From assembly GCA_951406725.2 (NCBI GenBank), contig OX597823.1, positions 85,622,001-85,686,000 of the forward strand: 64,000 nt of DNA, written 5' to 3'. The notes under the pieces were generated by a model. The model was not told the origin of the DNA. It did not search any database and was given only the letters and a program-made list of their open reading frames with translations. The position numbers were made by a program, and so were the translations under genes. Of this stretch, positions 3,777 through 61,019 are shown in pieces; the first letter of the stretch is position 1; the number at the start of each line of letters is the position of its first letter. The DNA comes from Octopus vulgaris. Lineage: Eukaryota.

Positions 3777-5450
3777 TTAGTATGGCACATCATATGTGAT
3801 GTGATGTGTAAAGTCATGTGGTGTAGTGAGGAGAAGAGGGGGAGGGGGAGAAGAGGGGGAGAGAAGGCGAGGGGAAGAAGAGGGGGAGGAGAAGGGGGAA
3901 TAGGAGAGGATGGGAGAGAGAGAGGAAGGGGAGGAGGGGGAGGAGGAAAGAGGGAGAGAGGGAGTGAGGGAGCAGAGGGAAGGGGAAGAGGGAGGGAGAA
4001 AGAGGGAAGAAGGGAAGGGGAGTAGGGGTGAAAGGATGAAGGACTGTAGAAGTAGGGGTCGGGGGGAGAAAGGATAGGTGAGGAGGGGAGAGAGGGGGGT
4101 TAGATGAGGAGGGGGAGAGTTGAGACCAAATGGCGTATAAGAGCGAAGAGAGAAGATTAATTCCTGTTCACGGCGCAAACGGGAATCCGGATGGCCTCTG
4201 TGTAAGGACAAACCGAACACAGATAGGTGTTGCAAGGAGTGACCGGTGGAGCGGAAATGGCGTGAGACCGGTGTGTCGTTCGCAAGGTGGATGTCACGAA
4301 GGTGTTCCGCGAACCGGTCAGCCAAGCGGCGTCCCGTTTGTCCGATATACAAGGAATTGCAGAGAGAGCAAGAGATGCAATAGATAATATTGCTGGAGGT
4401 GCAGGTGAAGGAGTGGATGATGGGATAGGGTCGATGGTGGGTGCTAGTGAGGCGGGTGGTGTTGGAGAGGTAAGGGCAAGTGCGGCAACGTGGGCGGGAG
4501 CAGGGGAACGAGCCGGGTTGGGAGGTAGGGTCAGGGAAGGAGCTATGGACCAAAAGGTCTCGAAGGTTGTGGGCTCGTTTGAAAGAGGGGAGGGGTCGGT
4601 TAGGGAAGAGGTGTGAAGTGGACGGGTCGGACTGGAGATGACGGAAAGCTCGAAGAATGGTGCGTTGGAGACGTAGGGTCGTGGGGTGGTAAGTGAGGGG
4701 AAAAGGGAGGCGGGAGACTACAGGGCGGGTTCGGGGAGAGAGAGCAGATACACGGTCCACGGACCGTGCTCTGGCAAGGGCGGTGTGGATAGTGGTGAGG
4801 GGGTATCCACGTAGGGTGAAGTGGTGAGCCATACGTTGAGACTGAGTCTCAAAGTCATGGTCGTCACTACAGAGCCTACGTAGACGGAGGAATTGGGAAT
4901 AGGGGATGGAAAGCTTGGTGTGTTCTGGGTGGGAGGAAGAGAAGTTGAGGTATGAGTGTGAGTCTGTGTGTTTGTAGTGAATGGAGGTGGTAAGAGTGGA
5001 GTGAAGAATGCTAACCGAAATGTCGAGGAAGGAGACAGAGGTGTTGGAGATAGTGGAAGTGAAGTGGAGGGCTGGATGGAAAGATTGGACGAAAGAGAGG
5101 AAGGAATCTAGATGTTCGCGGGAGAGTGAGGTGGCACCGATAATGTCGTCAATATAACGACCATATAGTTCAGGAGTGGGACCAGTGAAATTAGAGAATA
5201 TTTGGGCCTCAACATAGCCAACGAACAGGTTCGCATAGTTGGGGCCCATTCGCGTTCCCATGGCCACTCCCGAGACCTGATGGTAGAACTCGCCCGCGAA
5301 CGAGAAGCAGTTCAGAGTAAGGACAAGTTCGGCCAGACGAATGAGTGTGGAGGTGTCAGGTACAGGGTTAGAGCGGAGGTCAAGAAAGTGTCGAAGGGCC
5401 TGCAGTCCTTCGTGGTGAGGGATAACAGTATAGAGGCTTTGGATGTCCAT
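3777..5450 (-). CDS. PLE reverse transcriptase plus GIY-YIG endonuclease (partial; frame open back to about 5537)
   Basis: MDIQSLYT (RT motif A), GVAMGTRMGP, RYIDD, FLD, YKHTDSHSYL; linker CSRPRCRTC...FTC; IYCISCSLCNSLYIGQT...RFAEH...REQELI...GLN; low-complexity run-on after GLN. Confidence 0.93.
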   Translation of the reverse strand: MDIQSLYTVIPHHEGLQALRHFLDLRSNPVPDTSTLIRLAELVLTLNCFSFAGEFYHQVSGVAMGTRMGPNYANLFVGYVEAQIFSNFTGPTPELYGRYIDDIIGATSLSREHLDSFLSFVQSFHPALHFTSTISNTSVSFLDISVSILHSTLTTSIHYKHTDSHSYLNFSSSHPEHTKLSIPYSQFLRLRRLCSDDHDFETQSQRMAHHFTLRGYPLTTIHTALARARSVDRVSALSPRTRPVVSRLPFPLTYHPTTLRLQRTILRAFRHLQSDPSTSHLFPNRPLPSFKRAHNLRDLLVHSSFPDPTSQPGSFPCSRPRCRTCPYLSNTTRLTSTHHRPYPIIHSFTCTSSNIIYCISCSLCNSLYIGQTGRRLADRFAEHLRDIHLANDTPVSRHFRSTGHSLQHLSVFGLSLHRGHPDSRLRREQELIFSLRSYTPFGLNSPPPHLTPLSPLLTYPFSPRPLLLQSFILSPLLPFPSSLFLPPSSPSLCSLTPSLPLSSSPSSPSSLSPILSYSPFSSPSSSPRLLSPSSPPPPLLLTTPHDFTHHITYDVPY

Positions 5451-5535
5451 AGTAAAAAGGATTTTGGAGGAGCCGGGAGGAAAGGAGAAAGAGTTGAAAA
5501 GCCGGAGAGCATGGTTGGTATCGTGGATGTGGGAG

Positions 5536-7469
5536 TAGCAGTATCGCCCGGCGTTGCTCGGGTTTGTAAGGGAAATAACTATATAAGCATTTTTAGTGAG
5601 TTATAGCAAAAAAATAGCAAAAAATGCATTAAAAATGGAATCAAAAATTATGGTAAATTTTTTTTTAAATCGTTGACTCATCGTAGACATTTTTAGAGAG
5701 TTACTTCCCGTATATAATAGCGAAAAATGAATTAAAATGGAATAAAAAAATGATGGTAAATTTTTTTTAAATCGTAGACTCATCGTAGACGCGCGCTAAT
5801 ACCCAGAAGGGCTCGATATGAATCACGACTATAAGATACCCGGTTTTGGTTAAACTGCACCGCAAAATGTGGGAGTAGTTAGGAATCTAAATCGTAGGAG
5901 ACAGACACACAACTTCACTTTTATATATAAATATTTGCGCAACAACTAAAACATTCGGTTGTGCAAATTGTTTGCACAGGAAACCTTCCCTGTGTGGCGG
6001 TTTTTGCCGCTTTTTGTGGATCTGTTTCAGCTTTTTTAGCGATTTCTGTTTTGGCGACTTCAAGCCATGAAGTCGTTGTTCTAAAAGAACGCTGGTCTCC
6101 TTGACAACGCATTACGACGTTGATTTCATTACACTCCCTTCCCCATAGCTTCACGAGGGAGGGAAGAAGGGGGAGAAACAACACAGGTGCAGATGTGAGC
6201 ATGGACGCCAACTCCGCCGCCATCGACACACGAAAAAATATGCATTAAAATGGAATAAAAAATGATGTTAAATTATTTTTAAAATCGTAGACTCATCGTA
6301 GACGCGCGCTAATAGCCAGACGGGCTCGATATGAATCCCGACTATAAGATACCCGAATTTGATTAAACTGCACCGCAAAATGTGGGAGTAGTTAGGAATC
6401 TAAATCGAAGGGGACAGACACTCACACAACTACAGTTTTATATATATACTAGCAGTATCGCCCGGCGTTGCTCGGGTTTGTAAGGGAAATAACTATATAA
6501 GCATTTTTAGAGAGTTACTTCCTTTATAGATGCCAATTCGGGCTTTCTTAGCCATTTCTGTTTTGGTGTCTTCAAGCCATGAAGTCGTTGTTCTAAAAGA
6601 ACGCTGGTCTCCTTGACAACGCATTACGACGTTGATTTCCCTAAACTCCCTTCCCCACAGCTTCACGAGGGAGGGAAGAAGGGGGAGAAGCAAACACAGG
6701 TGCAGGTGTTTGAGCTTGGACGCCAACTCCGCCGCCATCGACACACGAAAAATTATGCATTAAAATGGAATAAAAAATGATGTTAAATTATTTTTAAAAT
6801 CGTAGACTCATCGTAGACGCGCGCTAATAGCCAGACGGGCTTGATATTATTCCCGACTATAAGACACCCGAATTTGGTTAAACTGCACCGCAAAATGTGG
6901 GAGGAGTTAGGAATCTAAATCGTAGGAGACAGACACTCACACAACTACAATTTTATATATATACTAGCAGTATCGCCCGGCGTTGCTCGGGTTTGTAAGG
7001 GAAATAACTATATAAGCATTTTTAGAGAGTTACTTCCCTTATAAATTCGGGCTTTCTTAGCCATTTTTGTTTTGGTGTCTTCAAGCCATGAAGTCATTGT
7101 TCTAAACGAACGCTGGTTTCCTTCACAACGCATTACGACGTTGATTTCTTTACACTCCCTTCCCCACAGCTTCACGAGGGAGGGAAGGGGGAGAAGCAAA
7201 CAGGTGCAGGTGTGAGCGTGGACGCCAACTCCGCCGCCATCGACACACGATGCATTTTATGCATTAAAATGGAATAAAAAATGATGTTAAATTATTTTTA
7301 AAATCGTAGACTCATCGTTGACGCGCGCTAATAGTCAGACGGGCTCGATATGAATCACGACTATAAGATACCCGAATTTGGTTAAACTGCACCGCAAAAT
7401 GTGGGAGGAGTTAGGAATCTAAATCGAAGGGGACAGACACTCACACAACTAGAGTTTTATATATATAGA
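5536..7469 (-). mobile_element. Head-to-tail array of about 4 non-autonomous Helitrons (full unit about 510 bp)
   Basis: Minus strand starts A|TCTATATATATAAAA at 7469; units end cccgagcaacgccggg hairpin plus CTAG at 6964, 6449 and (clipped) 5536; unit bodies are homologous. Confidence 0.85.
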
Positions 7470-13222: not shown

Positions 13223-13660
13223 AAAGCGGCGAGTTGGCAGAATCATTAGCACGCCGGGCAAAATGCTTAGCGGAATTTCGTCCATCTTTACGTTCTGAGT
13301 TCAAATTCTGGCGAGGTCGATTTTGTCTTTTTTCCTTTTGGGGTCGATAAAATAAGCAACAGTTTCGCACTGGAGTCAATGTAATCGACTGGCCAACATT
13401 CCCCCACCAAAATTTCAGGCCTTGTGCCTATAATAGAAAGGATTATTACAAACAGCACCAATAGGGCGAGCTGGCAGAATAGTTAGTACGCCGAACAAAA
13501 TATCTAGCGGCATTTCATCCGTCTTTACGTTCTGGATTCAATTTTCAAGGAGATTGACATTGCCTTTCATCCTCTTGGGGTCGATAAAATAAGTACCAGT
13601 TGAGCAGCGGGGTCGATGTAATCGACTAGCAAAACCCTGTCCAAAAATTTCAAAAATTTC
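13223..13660 (+). mobile_element. Two tandem SINE family A copies
   Basis: gcggcgag(c/t)tggcagaa...gagttcaaattc...ggggtcgataaaataagtaccag consensus, seen many times in the window. Confidence 0.9.
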
Positions 13661-14790: not shown

Positions 14791-15370
14791 TAAGGCGGCG
14801 AGCTGGCAGAAACGTTAGCATGCCGGGCGAAATGCGTAGCCGTATTTCGTCTGCCGTTACGTTGTGAGTTCAAATTCCGCCGAGGTCGACATTGCCTTTC
14901 ATCCCTGCGGGGTGGATAAATTAAGTACCAGTTACGCACTGGGGTCGATATAATCGATTTAATCCGTTTGTCCGTCCTTGTTTGTCCTCTCTGAGTTTAG
15001 CCCCTTTTGGGTAGTAAAGAAATAGGTATTTCGCCCGTCTCTACCTCTCGAGTTCAAATTCTGCTGAAGTCAACTTTGCCTTTCATCCTTTCGGGGTCGA
15101 TAAATTAAGCACCAGTTGCGTACTGGGGTAGATATAATCGACTGGATCCCTCCTCCAAAATTTCAGGCCTTGTGCCTATAATAGAAAGAATTATTATTCT
15201 AGCGTTAGTAAGGCGGTGAGTTGGCAGAATCGTTAGCTCGCTGGACGAAAGGCTTAGCGGCATTTCTCCCGTCGCTACGTTCTGAGTTCAAATTCCGTCG
15301 AGGTCGCCTTTGCCTATCATCTTTTAGGGGCCTATAAATTAAATACCATGCCAATAGTAGAAAGGATTAT
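14791..15370 (+). mobile_element. SINE family A cluster (two headed copies plus one headless)
   Basis: Family A consensus from 14791, 15025 and 15209. Confidence 0.9.
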
Positions 15371-16946: not shown

Positions 16947-19250
16947 TCAACGAGGAGTTTGCATATTAAGTTGTGTTTGGAATTTTTCAATAAAGAGATT
17001 CTCCTTGTTAATTCTCTCCTGTGTGGTGATCCCGTCTTTACATTGGTAGAAGGGGAATATATAGAATTTGGGGTTTAAGTCTTTAGCACATGAGTCTAAG
17101 TGGTCACTCAGTGGAATTTGTCGGTATTCCGGGAGATTTATTTGTTCTTTATGCACCGTTACTCGTTTACGTAACGGGAGACTCGTTTGTCCAACATAAT
17201 TATGTTGGCAACCAGCGCATGTGAGAACGTAGATAAGGTTCTCGGAGGAACAGGAGAAGTTAGTCTTGATTTTAAACTTCGTACCTTGTTTGAAGGTAAA
17301 TTCAGAGCCTTCAAGTAGAAAGGGGCAGGTACCACAGTTTGAGCGTGCACATTTTTTTACTGTTGGGGGTGGATGTGGTGTGTGAAGTTTGGCATTTGTC
17401 AAGAGTTTTTTTAAAGATTTGTGTTGCCTTTTGCATTTGAGGATTTTGTGTGTATTTATAATGTTTTTCATTTTTGGGTCTGTTGACAGTAGACTGAGGT
17501 TTTGTATGATTGTGGTGTATGCTTCGATATTTTTGGGGTTGTGGGTGGAAATGTATGGAAGTATTTTGAGGTTGTGTGTGGTGTTAGGTTGGGTGATTTT
17601 CAGTGTAGTGTTGTCTAGTTCTTTGGCGCGTTTTATTCCATACTCTATAAGGGTGGAGGGATATTGACGTTGTAATAGTGTTTTTTTGAGGTCTTGAAGG
17701 CGTATTTCTCGTGTTTTTGGATCCGAGACAATGGTGCATACCCTTTTAGCTAAATTGAAAGGGATATTTGTCTTGGTGTGTTTTGGGTGGCATGAACTAA
17801 AGAGGAGGTATTGTTGTGAGTCTGTAGGTTTGTGGTAGATGTCTGTTATGATTTGGTTCTTAGGTGTTTTTATAATTAGGAGATCAAGGAATGGGAGATG
17901 ATGTTTGCTTAATTCCATAGTGAATTGGATGTTGGGATGTATGTTGTTTAGTATGGTTTTGAATTCCAGGAGTTTTTCATAAGGTTCTTTCCATATGATG
18001 AAACAATCATCTAAATACCTTTTCCAGTTTTCCATTAGGTAGGTGTGGAAAACATGTCCAAATTTCTGGCTTGATATTTCATAGAGTGACAGTTCGAAGT
18101 AACCCATTATGAGGTTCGCAAGGACTGGTGCAGCCTTGGTACCCATCGCAATACCACATTTTTGACGGTAGTATGTGTCGTTGAAGAGAAAAAATTGTTT
18201 GTCAGAATGAACTTCTGTAATAAAAGACTTGTTAATGCGGTCAGGGAATGTCTCTGGGTGTTTTTCTAGCCAGAAGTCAATTACCTCTATACCATACTCA
18301 TGTGGATGTTGGTGTAGAGGTTGATGACATCAAAGGATACTTGCCTCCTCGTTAACTGTTTTCGGGAGGTGTTTGAGCATGTCCAGATCATCCCTAATGA
18401 AACTTTTGATGTGGGTAAGGAAAGGTTTCAAAAGGATGTCTAGGAAGTTACTCAGGCGGTGTGTTTCACAGGAGGTACCAGCCACGATGGGCCTTAGTTT
18501 TAGGTCCTCCGGTGCTTTGATGTTGATGTGGATGTCAGTGGAGAGTTTGCAGGCTTCGGTGATGTATTTGTTTTTATGGATTTTAGGAAGGCCATAAAAA
18601 AGGCTGGGCTTGCATTTGAAAATGGTGATATAATCCCTTTCTTTTTCTGTGAGTCCCTGACCGTGTTGGCGTATGAGTGTGGTGAGGTTTCTGATTGTTT
18701 TTTGCTGTTTGTAGTTGTTAATAACCTCATAGAAAATGTTATTGTTAAGCATGGAAAACACTAGGTGTTTATAAAATTCCGTGTCCATAAGGACCACAGC
18801 ACTCCCTTTGTCCGCTTCTTTGATGGTGAGGTTTTTATCCAGTTGTATGTCACGTAGGTTTTCCCATTCTTCCTTACTGAAATTGGATTTTACCTTGGTT
18901 TTGCTTGGGGTAAAGGGGAGACTCTGGATGTGTTTGCAGAAATCGTCCAGTGTTTTATTTCTCCCTTTTGGTGGTAGGAAGTTGCTTTTATTTCTGATCA
19001 ATGAATCGTCCCCATTGTTGATATCTGTCAAAGCTTCTGTTAGGCGAAGTTTTCTGCAGAATTCAGAAACGTCATCCTTGACCTCCGGGGGGTTGGGTGT
19101 TCTTGGGGTGGGTGTGAATTTCAAACCTCTTGCTAGGATGTTGATTTGGGTTGGTGTCAGTGTTTTGCTGGAGAGGTTTATAATTTTTGTTTTCTTATTT
19201 TGGGTCTGTGTTAGCGGTGGTGTTTGTATTTTTCCCCTCTGTCTAAAAAA
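16947..19250 (-). pseudogene. PLE2 RT plus GIY-YIG, frameshifted near 18150-18345
   Basis: IINLSSKTLT...ARGLKFTPTP, IKEADKG, FYGLPKIHK, LRPIV, SFDVINLYTNI, GIAMGT, RYLDD, LPFLD, CARSNCGTC, IYVLTCAGCQHNYVGQT. Confidence 0.92.
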
Positions 19251-35453: not shown

Positions 35454-35804
35454 TTCTGTGTCCTTATATTTTCGAATAAAGTAGATCAGCTCTACCCAGC
35501 ACAACTTCGCATCCACGGACCGATTTCTGGGTTATTGAGCTTTATCATCGTTTACTGAGTTGACGTTGATTAGATGTCGCTACTGAATTGCTGTCGATTT
35601 TTAAAGTGACACCCAGTCACTGATCTACAGAATAGAAATATTATTATTTCTAAATCTCTTAAAGAGCAGTTTAGTGGCATCATCTAGACGACCAAGCGAC
35701 TACATGCTGATAGAGAGCAATAACCCAGAAATTGCTCTGTGGATACGAGGCTGTGCTGGGTGGAGGTGCTGATCTCCACCGTTCGAAAATATAAGTACAC
35801 AGAA
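35454..35804. repeat. Diverged fold-back (inverted repeat)
   Basis: ttctgtgtccttatattttcgaa...atttctgggttattg at 35454-35537 is inverted at 35718-35804. Confidence 0.8.
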
Positions 35805-36030
35805 CTTTTTGTGTCGTATAGCCAGCTGGAAACCATGTTTCCTGGGGCTAAATATCAGTAACATTTGTCCCGTCCTGGGACCGCTACATTATGTTCCCAA
35901 AAAACCATTAACTTATGACGCTGCTACTGAATGTCTCTCTTTGAGAGATTTAGAAATAATGTTTCTATTTTATATATATATGTATATATATTCTTTTATT
36001 GTTATTATCATTAAAATATTTTATTCTAGT

Positions 36031-36247
36031 AAAGTGGCGAGCTGACTGAATCGTTAGCACGCCGGCCAAAATGCTTAGCAGTATTTCACCCGTCGCTAAA
36101 TGCCGAGTTCAAATTCTGCCGATGTCGATTTTGCCTTTCATCATTTCGGGGGCGATAAATTAAGTACCAGTGAAATACTGGGGACGATGTAATCGAGTTG
36201 CCCCTTCCCACAAAATTTCAGGTCTTGTGTCTATAATGAAAGGATTA
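36031..36247 (+). mobile_element. SINE family A
   Basis: Consensus match. Confidence 0.85.
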
Positions 36248-57990: not shown

Positions 57991-58023
<33 letters not shown>

Positions 58024-58093
58024 CATATATATATATATATATACATATATATATAGGCGAGTTCAGCACCCTCACCCAACAGAAAACGGTATC

Positions 58094-58136
58094 TGTGGAC
58101 CGCACGGTTTCATGGCTATTTCCCTTCGTCAGCACA
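58094..58136 (-). ncRNA. Type I hammerhead motif
   Basis: UGUG-CUGACGA-AGGGAAAUAGCCAU-GAA-ACCG(UG)CGGU-C-CACA; canonical core, GUC triplet, weak stem II. Confidence 0.7.
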
Positions 58137-58158
58137 CAACAACTGTTTGGATATCTAT

Positions 58159-58734
58159 TTATAACTAAGGTACTAAGAAGCACCAGATTTGCTAACAATA
58201 GGAGTCATAAAAACTCCGAACCCACAAGATTTAAGAGTAAATTTTATAGGCATGGTTGGAAAAAAACTAAGTGAATTAAGATTTTGCCTTACTTTCTGCA
58301 AAAGTGAAGGAAAGAATGTCAGTTAACCTGGTATAATGATTTCAAATTTAGCACCAAATACACTTGATTATCTGCAGTCAAATCTACTCACAATAATGTT
58401 CTTTATATATTTGTATGTTAATTCACTTAGTTCGTTTTCTCAATGCGGTTGAGGCCCTGAAACGAACACAGACATAGGTTGAAGTGAAGTATAGTAATTG
58501 TCATGAGTTGACTTGGCTGAAGAGAATCAAGTACTTTTGGCACTAAATTAAAAATCATGGTACCAGGTTAACAGACATTCCTTCTTTCAATTTTGCAGAG
58601 GTAAGGCGCAATTTTTATTCACTTGTTTTTTTCTAATACTGACTGTAAAAATTTAGTGTTAATACTTGTGGCTTCGGAGTATTTTTGTCTCCTATTTGTT
58701 AGCAAAGTTGGTGCGTCATAGCGCCCTTGTTATA
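58159..58734. repeat. Diverged fold-back of about 575 bp
   Basis: 58159-58395 aligns to the reverse complement of 58500-58734; central gttcgttt...aaacgaac hairpin. Confidence 0.88.
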
Positions 58735-58913
58735 TGCAATTCTTATATATATATATCTATTAATTTTACCTATACAGTTTTAAGCTTACAGCCACTAACA
58801 TTGTTATCTCTTATTAGTAACAATGTTCTTTATAACTTTACAAAAGAATATTGAGTAATCCGTCTGTTTATTATTAAATTGTTTGTCTTACAATTTTGCA
58901 TGAAGACAAATAA

Positions 58914-58997
<84 letters not shown>

Positions 58998-59130
58998 TGA
59001 TAATAATGAAAATAATTCATATGGAATTTATAGATATTTTAATGCACAGCTAGTGCGTCACCACAAATCACATATTTGTGGCTTTAGTTCGTATACCTGA
59101 GATGATTACAGTCCAATATATAATATCCAT

Positions 59131-59199
<69 letters not shown>

Positions 59200-59249
59200 C
59201 ACACATATATATAAATATACATACATACATACATACAAATAAATACAGC

Positions 59250-59405
59250 CGTGGCTGTGTGGTAAGAAATTTGTTCCCCAATCACATGGTTCTGGGTTCA
59301 GTCCCACTGCATGACACATTGGGCAAGTGTCTTCTACGAAAGCCTCGGGCCGACCAAAGCCTTTTCAGTGGATTTGGTAGATGGAAACCGAAAGATGCCC
59401 GTCGT
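59250..59405 (+). mobile_element. SINE family B 5' half
   Basis: Matches 41643-41795. Confidence 0.85.
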
Positions 59406-61019
59406 ATGTATGTACGTATGTAAACTGAGACTTGTATTGCTTTATTTATAAGGAACATGGGTTGAAGAACTCGATACATAATGCAGAGTATAATTATTTG
59501 TATATAAATATTGTCTTTGTTGTTACCTTAAATTTTTCCTATATACACCTTGACTGACAGTCATACTAAATTATCAAAATATGCCATGAGTCAAAATACC
59601 ACAAGGAACTTCATTAATTCTTTAGTTTACACAGATTGTGAACGCTCTTTGTATTGAGCGCTGTTTTCTTTAACAATCATCACCCTTTAATTTCTTCGCG
59701 AAATTGTAGTGATTTAGAGGATGTTTGTTGATTAAGAATTAGCTACACATTTTCCGCTTGTTATATTTATTTTTTTTTTGTTCTGTTAAATTTTCTGTTT
59801 GCTGTGTTTTTGTTAAATATTTAAAATTAATTTCATATTGAAATTTACCGGTTAACTCGTCCCTTAACTATTCAAATATTTAAACAATCCAGAACCGATC
59901 AAAATATTCCATACCTTTTATTGGTCAAACCTGACAGATTCAGTCTCTCACGCCCACTCTACAATGTCCAAAAATAGACTGCCACATGATCGAATTATGA
60001 AAATTGGGTGATTAATTCAAAACAATCTGATAAAATAAACATTACCTATGATAGAGTAATCAGGATGGTAAAAAGATCGGTTGGCATGTTGCGTTTCGTA
60101 TCTTAGTTTAATTTGTTTTTCTGTGGAATTTTCTTTTACTGCGTGTGATGTCTGTAAATTTAGTGTCTTTGCAAGTTCGAGCTCCTCCTGTATAAGAAGA
60201 AGAACTTTTTAAATGCTGACTCATATATTTCTTTGCACGGAAGAAAGAAAGAATGATTGAAGCCACGATGTGAAGGTTTCTTTATTCTAGCTTAAAACGT
60301 GGAAGAATAGGGTCAGAATCTAGATTTTTTTCTGCTTCACAATTTTACAGTGTCTACAGCGATTGCTGTATTCATACGTAGATATATTCTACTTTATCGT
60401 GGGGTTGCATATTTCAACAGACTCTTGTGGGCAAAGCGTATTATTAAAGGCGCATTGCCTTATATGAATATTTTAAAAGTAAATGAACAGTTGTGCAGTG
60501 TTAATTCTAATTTTAAAGGAATTCTTTGTTCACCTAATGCATCTCAGGCATTGGGATATGTAACACACTGCCTAAATACCAATCTGGAGAAATTAGGCTT
60601 TTCAAACCAGAAAGGAGAAAGCTGATTAGAAGACTACACATTCAAGTCGTCACTGGAACAGAAAAATTTGTAAAACTTCCCAGAAGTTTATCATTTATGT
60701 ATATATAACCATGATTAATAGGCAAGTATATGCATAAGATGACATACATAAAATAAAACACACAAATCTGTTCATATACATACATACGTACATGCATACA
60801 TATATACAAAAATACTCTGTTGATGTCGAAATTCCAATAAAGGAGCCTTGGATTTAGGTTAGGAACCGGCTTTCTCTCTATTGGCGAGAAAACTTGAAAT
60901 AAAACTAAACAATGACATACATACAAACATATATACACACAGATACATACATACATACATACATACATACGTACACACATACATATATGCATACATACAT
61001 ACATACATACATACATACA

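What the first reader, a model, noticed from the sequence alone, without database searches (positions are those of the whole stretch)
58056..58744. 690-bp (TA)n-bounded element: one long rod-like fold-back plus a hammerhead
Seen: between TA tracts ending at 58055 and starting at 58745, the minus strand has a ~575-nt imperfect palindrome paired nearly to its centre, then a canonical-core GUC hammerhead (58136-58094) and a 38-nt tail. There is no credible ORF. Inference: a non-coding, highly paired RNA with a ribozyme resembles a retrozyme-like unit mobilised by a PLE RT; alternatively it is a decayed inverted PLE UTR. The arms are quite diverged from each other.
Basis: partly seen in the sequence, partly recalled or inferred. 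Interest (0 to 1): 0.72.

Follow-up and report, generated by a model that had tools for sequence, protein, structure and literature searches.

The report
Inverted repeat pair beside hammerhead fragment
What looked like one rod-shaped ribozyme RNA gene is a pile-up of decayed copies of two unrelated repeat families, an arrangement that Penelope-like jumping genes likely produce routinely in this genome, so it is ordinary.

Summary
The rod and the hammerhead core are both in the sequence (fold z = -17; CUGACGA...GAAA...GUC). They do not form one element.

**The rod.** It is a full copy (58395-58837, +) and an inverted, 5'-truncated copy (58396-58156, -) of a ~440-nt interspersed repeat, "family A", joined head to head. 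The TA tract at 58745 lies inside that repeat and is not a boundary.

**The hammerhead.** It sits in a ~95-105-nt fragment of a separate repeat, "family B". Elsewhere B occurs as 331-387-nt tandem units with a conserved type-I hammerhead, which is retrozyme-like.

**No shared unit.**
- 0 of 25 A loci carry the hammerhead, and 0 of 27 B places carry the arms.
- 0 of 41 other genome matches cross the A|B junction.

**No selection on the rod.**
- The arms are 76.9% identical, against a family mean of 80.4%.
- They share no excess of derived changes.
- An allelic or orthologous contig has a 34-nt deletion in one arm and uncompensated substitutions.

**Likely origin.** Across family A, 16 of 16 adjacent inverted pairs are head to head. 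That is the published insertion signature of Penelope-like elements.

**State of the hammerhead.** It is alone and has mismatches in helices I and II, so it is predicted to be inactive.

Earlier notes of this scan describe similar head-to-head Penelope-type palindromes elsewhere in this genome. Verdict: ordinary.

The parts
57991..58055 (.). (AT)n microsatellite, part of a compound TG/CG/TA tract from about 57892. It forms the left border of the block and is the likely target or tail tract.
   Evidence: TRF: period 2, 32.5 copies, 90% matches. Sequence read.
58056..58160 (-). Fragment of repeat family B, cut on both sides. It holds the hammerhead and the 38-nt 'tail', which is also family B sequence.
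   Evidence: 41 genome matches at 76-87% identity to this stretch. An alignment of 47 other copies shows the family running on both upstream and downstream, where the window copy stops. The inner edge is firm to 58150 and weaker to about 58160.
58094..58136 (-). Type-I hammerhead motif: core CUGACGA / GAAA, palindromic helix III ACCGUGCGGU, predicted cut after C58098. Helices I and II each carry a mismatch relative to the family majority.
   Evidence: No Rfam hammerhead hit.
58156..58396 (-). Arm 2: an inverted copy of repeat family A. It is 5'-truncated (unit positions about 115-355) and ends at the family's internal TA tract.
   Evidence: BLAST of a reference unit from L002: 78.9% over 242 nt. 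Genome matches.
58395..58837 (+). Arm 1: a full-length copy of repeat family A (about 443 nt). An internal (TA)6-7 lies at 58745-58757. The same 16-nt motif stands at both ends (58395-58410 and 58822-58837).
   Evidence: 83.4% identity over 441 nt to the L002 unit. Terminal motif. Direct repeat D7 with spacing 427.
58914..58997 (.). (AC)n(AT)n microsatellite to the right of the block.
   Evidence: TRF.

Best explanation
The 690-base stretch is three pieces of two unrelated repeat families lying side by side: a full copy and an inverted, 5'-truncated copy of a ~440-nt interspersed repeat (family A) joined head to head, which makes the rod, and a ~100-nt fragment of a hammerhead-bearing tandem repeat (family B); the head-to-head pair was probably laid down by a Penelope-type insertion into a TA tract, and the lone, weakened hammerhead is predicted to be inactive.

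**Shown**
- The family assignments of the three pieces.
- The A|B junction occurs nowhere else among the scored genome matches.
- The arms show no compensatory evolution.
- Family A has a head-to-head bias.
- Family B keeps the hammerhead fold.

**Inferred**
- A Penelope-like reverse transcriptase/endonuclease mobilised family A. This rests on insertion architecture only.
- The two arms arose in one insertion event.
- The ribozyme no longer cuts.
For: **1. Two families, not one unit**
- Arm sequence matches many genome places as single ~350-nt units at 76-84% identity, and no match runs past q594 (99 matches; 40 of 276 candidates scored).
- The last 95 nt match a different set of places (41 matches; 40 of 58 candidates scored).
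- 0 of 29 B loci (27 distinct places) hold arm sequence within 1.5 kb.
- 0 of 29 A loci (25 distinct places plus window duplicates) hold the hammerhead piece.
- With a 121-nt query centred on the junction, 0 of 41 non-self matches cross it.

**2. The right-hand TA tract is internal to family A**
- The A copy runs to about 58837.

**3. No selection for the rod**
- The arms are 76.9% identical, against a family mean of 80.4%. Each arm has many closer relatives elsewhere: the other arm ranks 29th of 32 for arm 1 and 21st of 32 for arm 2.
- The arms differ from the family majority at 27 and 33 sites, against a family mean of 24.7.
- They share 5 derived sites, against a background mean of 2.3 and a 95th percentile of 6. 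The young fold-back at L006 shares 25.
- Contigs from two DNA-like runs of one study bridge the whole block at about 97% identity. They carry a 34-nt deletion in one arm, which removes 29 paired positions.
- The same contigs carry 18 substitutions. 8 lie in paired positions; 5 break the pair, 3 keep it, and 0 are compensated.

**4. Penelope-type architecture in family A**
- In 25 loci, 16 adjacent inverted pairs are all head to head and 0 are tail to tail. There are also 12 partial tandems.
- The far end of the unit is variably truncated.
- Copies often adjoin (TA)n (19 of 60 pieces).
- Craig et al. 2021 (PMC8557442, passages read) describe exactly these features for PLEs: partial tandems, an inverted 5'-truncated copy immediately at the 5' end, and (TA)n targets.

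**5. Family B is retrozyme-like**
- Same-strand hammerheads lie 331-387 nt apart (one pair 522) in 7 of 27 places.
- The fold is kept in 88.8% of cells, against 25-46% when the partners are slid.
- Helix III is palindromic in two versions.
- A 337-nt cut-to-cut monomer is self-paired, z = -4.2.

**6. The window's hammerhead is degraded**
- It is a single copy. The next B copy is 22 kb away and degenerate.
- Its hammerhead fold scores +2.5 kcal/mol against an alternative MFE of -11.5. The best family copy reaches -11.3.
- Metazoan type-I hammerheads with a short palindromic helix III are reported to need a second copy nearby (PMC4209133, passages read).
Against: - No sequence link between family A or B and any PLE ORF was found. 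The two PLE ORFs in the window lie 38 kb or more away. 30 loci each of two young PLE families hold no A or B sequence within 1.5 kb.
- The Penelope link therefore rests on insertion architecture alone.
- The A loci were picked with a head-to-head palindromic query. That could favour the three or four full-length head-to-head loci (L006, L007, L008, L017) among the top hits.
- Only 40 of 276 candidates were scored, so a rare second composite copy cannot be strictly excluded.
- The arms do not group together in the tree and differ at the tail. That is neutral to slightly against a single-event origin.
- Loss of ribozyme activity is predicted from the structure and was not measured.
- One 168-nt contig from a run guessed to be RNA covers the palindrome centre, so transcription is not excluded.
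Confidence: 0.8

Rival explanations
1. The same composite arose differently: the two arms are two independent family A insertions, the second landing at the TA-rich 5' end of the first, rather than one complex Penelope-type event.
For: - The arms are no closer to each other than to unrelated copies (76.9% against a mean of 80.4%) and fall in different parts of the tree.
- Their tails differ at two or three linked sites.
- The unit starts with a TA-rich motif that could itself be a target.
Against: - The copies abut with no spacer at 58395/58396.
- All 16 adjacent inverted pairs in the family are head to head and none is tail to tail. Independent insertions should give both orientations.
- In a star-like family of one age, co-born arms are expected to look as diverged as any other pair. 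The divergence therefore does not discriminate between the two origins.
Confidence: 0.25
2. One reading: the rod plus hammerhead is one retrozyme-like or viroid-like non-coding RNA unit that replicates through an RNA intermediate.
For: - The fold is very stable (z = -17).
- The hammerhead core is intact.
- TA tracts lie nearby.
- PLE ORFs are present in the same window.
Against: - No other copy of the composite or of its junction was found.
- There is a single hammerhead where excision of a unit needs two.
- The size of 689 nt lies outside the 170-400 nt reported for animal retrozymes.
- The arms decay neutrally, with no compensation and a 34-nt one-arm deletion in another individual or species.
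- The right boundary is not a boundary.
Confidence: 0.03
3. Arm 2 and the family B fragment are one chimeric retrocopy. Reverse transcription would have started on a family B RNA at the TA tract and switched template to a family A RNA.
For: - Arm 2 and the B fragment are on the same strand, in sense order A then B then (TA)n.
- The junction falls at TA-rich microhomology: family A's internal TA tract meets 'ATAT' of B.
- 3 of 47 other B copies also end near the same 3' point next to other sequence.
Against: - The junction is unique, so it has no replication.
- The B piece is cut at both ends relative to the family. Decay or deletion next to an expanding microsatellite explains that equally well.
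- Nothing here tests the order of events.
Confidence: 0.1
4. The inverted pair arose after insertion as a DNA-level fold-back duplication (replication or repair at a TA tract), unrelated to any retroelement mechanism.
For: - Palindromes next to AT microsatellites are prone to such events (general knowledge, not tested here).
- Young pairs with near-identical arms exist (L006, 96.2%).
Against: - The inner end of the short arm differs from locus to locus while the outer 3' ends are constant. That is the pattern of 5' truncation during reverse transcription.
- The strict head-to-head polarity fits the retroelement mechanism.
Confidence: 0.05

Closest known systems
Insertion units of endonuclease-bearing Penelope-like elements, with pseudo-LTRs and an inverted 5'-truncated copy at the 5' end (Craig et al. 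2021, PMC8557442; passages read)
   Same: - A full copy is preceded directly by an inverted 5'-truncated copy.
- Partial tandems occur in the family.
- 5' truncation is frequent.
- Copies are associated with (TA)n.
The family-wide polarity is 16 head-to-head and 0 tail-to-tail.
   Different: - There is no RT or GIY-YIG ORF; the unit is only ~440 nt.
- Family A has no hammerhead of its own.
- No shared 3' end with the PLE families tested was found.
Metazoan non-LTR retrozymes (Cervera and de la Pena 2020, PMC7229834, passages read; Li et al. 2026, 10.64898/2026.07.22.740005, abstract only)
   Same: Family B as a whole fits:
- type-I hammerhead;
- tandem units of 331-387 nt;
- a self-paired monomer.
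GC content was not measured for family B.
   Different: - The window holds only a ~100-nt piece with one hammerhead.
- The 690-nt block is neither tandem nor repeated.
- It is outside the reported size range.
- Circular RNA was not shown for either.
Canonical metazoan type-I hammerheads that act as dimers through a short palindromic helix III (Cervera and de la Pena 2014, PMC4209133; passages read)
   Same: - In the family majority, helix I has 6 bp and helix II has 4 bp.
- Helix III is palindromic (ACCGUACGGU or AUCGCGAU).
- The cut triplet is GUC or AUA.
   Different: - The window copy has mismatches in helices I and II and no partner copy nearby.
- The commonest core in the sampled family reads CCGACGA (11 of 40), which departs from the consensus U4.
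Viroid-like and HDV-like rod-shaped circular RNAs with hammerheads (PMC7936874; search listing only)
   Same: A long, nearly unbranched rod lies beside a hammerhead on the same strand.
   Different: - The rod here is a DNA palindrome of two decayed repeat copies.
- The ribozyme lies outside the rod.
- There is no second copy, no covariation and no RNA evidence.

Membership tests
Metazoan non-LTR retrozyme (the 690-nt block as a unit) | Two or more type-I hammerheads in tandem that flank a monomer | tested here: not met
   There is one hammerhead pattern in the 64-kb window. The only other family B copy lies at 35705-35990 and has a degenerate core.
Metazoan non-LTR retrozyme (the 690-nt block as a unit) | Monomer of about 150-450 bp, repeated as the same unit at many loci | tested here: not met
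   The block is 689 nt. No other locus joins arm and hammerhead sequence. 0 of 41 matches cross the junction.
Metazoan non-LTR retrozyme (the 690-nt block as a unit) | Expressed as linear and circular RNA | not testable with these tools
   No listed run is on record as RNA. Contigs cannot show circles.
Metazoan non-LTR retrozyme (the 690-nt block as a unit) | Low GC (below 45-50%) | tested here: met
   GC is 36.0%, but the whole window is 37.0%, so this does not discriminate.
Metazoan non-LTR retrozyme (family B as a whole) | Tandem units with a conserved type-I hammerhead and a self-paired monomer | tested here: met
   - Same-strand spacing is 331-387 nt (one pair 522) in 7 of 27 places.
- 88.8% of cells are paired, against 25-46% when slid.
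- The monomer folds with z = -4.2.
- Circular RNA was not tested.
Hammerhead ribozyme, type I | Conserved core C3 U4 G5 A6 N7 G8 A9, G12 A13 A14, and N-U-H at the cut site | tested here: met
   The window copy reads CUGACGA / GAAA / GUC. It is one of the 10 intact cores among the 40 aligned copies.
Hammerhead ribozyme, type I | Three helices able to form around the core | tested here: inconclusive
   - Helix I has 4 bp and then a G.G mismatch.
- Helix II has a G.A mismatch at 10.2/11.2.
- Helix III has 3 bp, or is palindromic for pairing in a dimer.
- The hammerhead fold scores +2.5 kcal/mol against an MFE of -11.5.
Hammerhead ribozyme, type I | A match to a curated Rfam hammerhead model | tested here: not met
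   - There is no hit in the window at gathering score, or at E <= 10 in 1 kb or in 106 nt.
- The best family copy scores only 21.4 bits against RAGATH-1-hammerhead, whose gathering score is 56.3.
- None of 14 B loci gives a hit at E <= 0.1.
Penelope-like element insertion unit (family A pair) | An inverted 5'-truncated copy immediately adjacent to the 5' end of a full copy | tested here: met
   Arm 2 (unit positions 115-355) abuts the start of arm 1 at 58395/58396. In the family, 16 of 16 adjacent inverted pairs are head to head.
Penelope-like element insertion unit (family A pair) | Partial tandem (pseudo-LTR) | tested here: inconclusive
   There are 12 partial tandems in 25 family loci. The window copy shows only a 16-nt motif at both ends.
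Penelope-like element insertion unit (family A pair) | Insertion bias for microsatellites such as (TA)n | tested here: inconclusive
   (AT)32 flanks the block. 19 of 60 family pieces have (TA)5 or more within 60 nt of the 3' end. The family carries TA tracts of its own, so target and tail cannot be told apart.
Penelope-like element insertion unit (family A pair) | An ORF with reverse transcriptase and GIY-YIG endonuclease, or a 3' end shared with such an element | tested here: not met
   - No ORF lies in the block.
- The weak RVT_1 + GIY-YIG ORFs in the window lie at 3777-5600 and 16947-18329.
- Nothing similar to family A lies beside those ORFs.
- No A or B sequence lies in 30 loci each of two PLE families.
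Viroid-like / HDV-like rod-shaped circular RNA | A rod conserved by compensatory change, and a ribozyme that is part of the replicating unit | tested here: not met
   0 compensated changes, and a 34-nt one-arm deletion in other DNA. The arms share 5 derived sites, which is within background. The composite is unique.

The most novel reading that the evidence does not exclude
The whole block was written in one Penelope-type reverse-transcription event that used more than one RNA. Synthesis began on a hammerhead-bearing retrozyme RNA at a TA tract, jumped to a family A RNA, and then produced the inverted second arm. The locus would then be a fossil of template switching between a retrozyme and a ribozyme-less non-autonomous element that share the same mobilising enzyme.
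Probability: 0.08. Interest if true: 0.4.

Novelty: new member of a known kind. Interest (0 to 1): 0.15.

Why it matters
The result removes a false lead. A very stable rod next to an intact hammerhead core looks like a new viroid-like or retrozyme-like RNA, but here it is a by-product of how two repeat families landed beside each other.

Two modest points remain:
1. **Family A.** It shows the full Penelope-type insertion signature: strict head-to-head pairs, partial tandems, 5' truncation and TA tracts. It has no hammerhead and no identified autonomous partner. It may be useful for asking whether the ribozyme is needed for that mode of insertion.
2. **Family B.** It adds a cephalopod-like retrozyme-type family. 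Its commonest sampled core departs from the consensus at U4.

Neither point changes current understanding.

Tried and rejected
- **Rfam.** Four kinds of scan gave no usable hammerhead hit: the whole window at gathering score, 1 kb at E <= 10, 106 nt at E <= 10, and 14 B loci at E <= 0.1. The hits were microRNA models laid on microsatellites.
- **RNA evidence.** No RNA holder is listed. One 168-nt contig from a run only guessed to be RNA covers 58239-58406. This cannot be used either way.
- **Autonomous partner, PLE ORFs near repeat loci.** A tblastn of the window's PLE ORFs against all A and B loci gave scattered PLE fragments 0.6-1.2 kb away, in L015, L023, L024 and L047. Extending L047 to 5 kb showed no B copy downstream of the ORF.
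- **Autonomous partner, PLE family loci.** 30 loci each of two young PLE families hold no A or B sequence within 1.5 kb.
- **Subfamily markers to separate the arms.** There are 14 polymorphic sites, mostly C/T or G/A with weak linkage, so the test is inconclusive.
- **ADAR-type hyper-editing of the hairpin.** There is no excess: A>G plus T>C is 5 of 27 in arm 1 and 2 of 33 in arm 2.
- **tRNA-like head in family A.** ARAGORN found none, and Rfam gave no tRNA hit.
- **Missing upstream part of family B on the far side of the A pair.** The matches at 59125-59422 fall on an unrelated repeat far from the hammerheads in the B loci.
- **Earlier-notes look-ups.** Look-ups by place (near) and by three sequences gave nothing.
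- **Not seen.** Supplements of the cited papers were not read. bioRxiv supplements are closed. Repeat libraries such as Repbase or Dfam were not available, so whether families A and B already have names is unknown.

Full report
**What is in the sequence**

Read on the minus strand, 58744 to 58056 (q1-q689) folds into a long hairpin. MFE is -256.1 kcal/mol, against -147.2 +/- 6.3 for 20 dinucleotide-preserving shuffles (z = -17.2, none as good). 213 pairs span the centre, from q11-q585 inward.

A hammerhead pattern, CUGACGA ... GAAA ... GUC, lies at 58132-58098 (-). On its own it is not beyond chance: 0.43 are expected per window, and 36 of 100 shuffles give at least one. No Rfam hammerhead model reports it at gathering score, at E <= 10 in 1 kb, or at E <= 10 in 106 nt.

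An (AT)32 tract ends at 58055. The only ATG ORF of 40 aa or more that lies wholly inside is 43 aa. The observation therefore holds, apart from the right boundary and the idea that this is one element.

**The arms belong to an interspersed repeat, family A**

The window lies in a 2.8-Gb genome of 227 contigs. Earlier notes of this scan call it octopus-like; I did not test that.
- A search with the 689 nt gave 99 matches (40 of 276 candidates scored).
- The best non-self match is 83% over q2-q350, and no match runs past q594.
- Most places hold a single unit.
- The q1 end is constant and the q350 end varies. That is the pattern of 5' truncation, so the sense strand of arm 1 is the window's plus strand.

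A reference unit taken from locus L002 aligns to 58395-58834 (+) at 83.4% and to 58396-58156 (-) at 78.9%.
- Arm 1 is therefore a full unit of about 443 nt.
- It begins and ends with the same 16-nt motif, at 58395-58410 and 58822-58837.
- Arm 2 is an inverted copy covering unit positions about 115-355. It abuts the start of arm 1 without a spacer.
- The central ~100 nt of the 'rod' belongs to arm 1 alone.
- ARAGORN finds no tRNA-like head.

**The hammerhead belongs to a different repeat, family B**

The last 105 nt match 41 other places at 76-87% (40 of 58 candidates scored). An alignment of 47 such copies with 60-nt flanks shows the family running on both upstream and downstream of the part kept in the window. 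The window therefore holds a fragment of about 95-105 nt.

Features of family B:
- Same-strand hammerheads lie 331-387 nt apart (one pair 522) in 7 of 27 distinct places. Inverted pairs occur as well.
- On a 40-sequence alignment the three-helix fold is kept in 88.8% of cells, against 25-46% when the partners are slid. Covariation exceeds the shuffles (3 of 500 reach the score). The double changes are concentrated in helix III. Six of those cells may be one inherited event.
- Helix III is palindromic in two versions (ACCGUACGGU with GUC, AUCGCGAU with AUA).
- The family majority has helix I of 6 bp and helix II of 4 bp. That is the architecture given for canonical metazoan type-I hammerheads that work as dimers (PMC4209133, passages).
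- A 337-nt cut-to-cut monomer is self-paired (z = -4.2).

Family B thus fits the description of animal non-LTR retrozymes (PMC7229834, passages). Circular RNA was not tested.

Only 10 of the 40 aligned cores are intact. The commonest form is CCGACGA (11 of 40).

**The two families are joined only here**
- None of the 29 B loci (27 places) holds arm sequence within 1.5 kb.
- None of the 29 A loci holds the hammerhead piece.
- A 121-nt query centred on the junction gave 41 non-self matches. Each stops at the junction, on the A side by position 64 and on the B side from position 54 (40 of 49 candidates scored).

They do not, because there is no second composite copy.

**The rod is not under selection**
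- The arms are 76.9% identical, below the family mean of 80.4%. Each has many closer relatives elsewhere.
- They differ from the family majority at 27 and 33 sites, against a family mean of 24.7. There is no A>G excess. Their mutual divergence is simply the sum of two ordinary decays.
- They share 5 derived sites. Unrelated pairs share 2.3 on average, with a 95th percentile of 6. The young fold-back at L006 shares 25.
- Contigs of two runs from one study bridge 58056-58760 at about 97%, which also shows the arrangement is not an assembly artefact. They carry a 34-nt deletion in one arm (29 of its 34 positions are paired).
- They also carry 18 substitutions. 8 lie in paired positions; 5 break the pair, 3 keep it, and none is compensated.

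**Why a head-to-head pair**

In 25 family A loci, every one of the 16 adjacent inverted pairs (gap under 1.2 kb) is head to head and none is tail to tail. There are 12 partial tandems. 19 of 60 pieces have (TA)5 or more just beyond the 3' end.

Craig et al. 2021 (PMC8557442, passages) describe this for Penelope-like elements:
- strong 5' truncation;
- partial tandems forming pseudo-LTRs;
- an inverted 5'-truncated copy immediately at the 5' end;
- (TA)n as a preferred target of one clade.

I therefore read the rod as the DNA footprint of such an insertion by a non-autonomous element.

Caveats:
- The loci were chosen with a palindromic query, which may favour a few full-length head-to-head loci.
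- The link to Penelope-like enzymes is by architecture only.
- The window's weak RT + GIY-YIG ORFs (3777-5600 and 16947-18329, minus strand, both below Pfam cut-offs) lie far away and have no A-like sequence beside them.
- 30 loci each of two young PLE families hold no A or B sequence within 1.5 kb.

Whether the two arms were born in one event or two cannot be settled. In a star-like family, co-born arms look as diverged as any other pair, and the subfamily markers are weak.

**State of the hammerhead here**

The core is intact. Relative to the family majority, helix I has a G.G mismatch after four pairs and helix II has a G.A mismatch. With contiguous helices only, the hammerhead fold scores +2.5 kcal/mol against an alternative MFE of -11.5. 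The best family copy (L036) reaches -11.3. There is no second copy nearby: the only other B copy in the window, at 35705-35990, is 22 kb away and has a degenerate core. Loss of activity is a prediction, not a measurement.

**Comparison and verdict**

The block fails the defining tests for a retrozyme unit: no tandem hammerheads, wrong size, not repeated. It also fails the tests for a viroid-like rod: no covariation, and the ribozyme lies outside the rod. It matches the insertion architecture of Penelope-like elements, with a decayed retrozyme-type fragment beside it.

Earlier notes of this scan on other parts of this genome describe the same head-to-head Penelope-type palindromes. I reached the reading from my own calls and from the published passages before seeing them.

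The finding is ordinary. The families themselves may be unnamed members of known kinds.

Noticed in passing
window 16947-18329 (-), with upstream open frames to about 20688; genome loci L062-L091: This ORF has weak RT and GIY-YIG matches and belongs to a very young, very abundant family. All 150 scored genome matches to its C-terminal 200 aa are 97-100% identical, and many sit in 753-aa open frames. The first look gave 20714 candidates. Several neighbouring matches lie as (-)(+) pairs a few kb apart.
   Followed up: partly
L047 2171-3046 and loci L092-L121: A second Penelope-like family, 56% aa identity to the first, is equally young. All 150 scored matches are about 100% identical, and many sit in 784-aa open frames.
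   Followed up: partly
window 3777-5600 (-): A third ORF has weak RT and GIY-YIG matches, 27% aa identity to the L047 family element over 288 aa. A fragment at locus L024 is 100% identical to it over 156 aa.
   Followed up: no
window 35705-35990 (+): A second copy of the hammerhead-bearing family B, about 285 nt long. Its core is degenerate (CUGAUAG...) and the copy ends in a TA tract.
   Followed up: partly
Alignment A1 of family B copies (loci L032-L060): The commonest core reads CCGACGA (11 of 40) rather than CUGAYGA. The variants (CUGACGA, CCAACGA, CCGAUGA, CCGACAA and double forms) look like CpG decay products. Some apparently intact cores may therefore be secondary, or a U4C lineage may have amplified.
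   Followed up: partly
window 13228-13627, 14792-15348 and 36036-36227: Another abundant interspersed repeat stands in several adjacent copies. It also occurs in the flanks of many family B loci and is unrelated to the finding.
   Followed up: no
window 58289-58322: Contigs of runs X2 and X3 (two organism labels, one study) lack these 34 nt of arm 2 and differ at about 3% of sites. The locus is therefore shared between individuals or close species.
   Followed up: partly
L006 (G000:C26:21601475-21602113): A young head-to-head pair of family A. Its arms are 96.2% identical and share 25 derived sites. It is a good specimen for studying how the inverted copy arises.
   Followed up: partly
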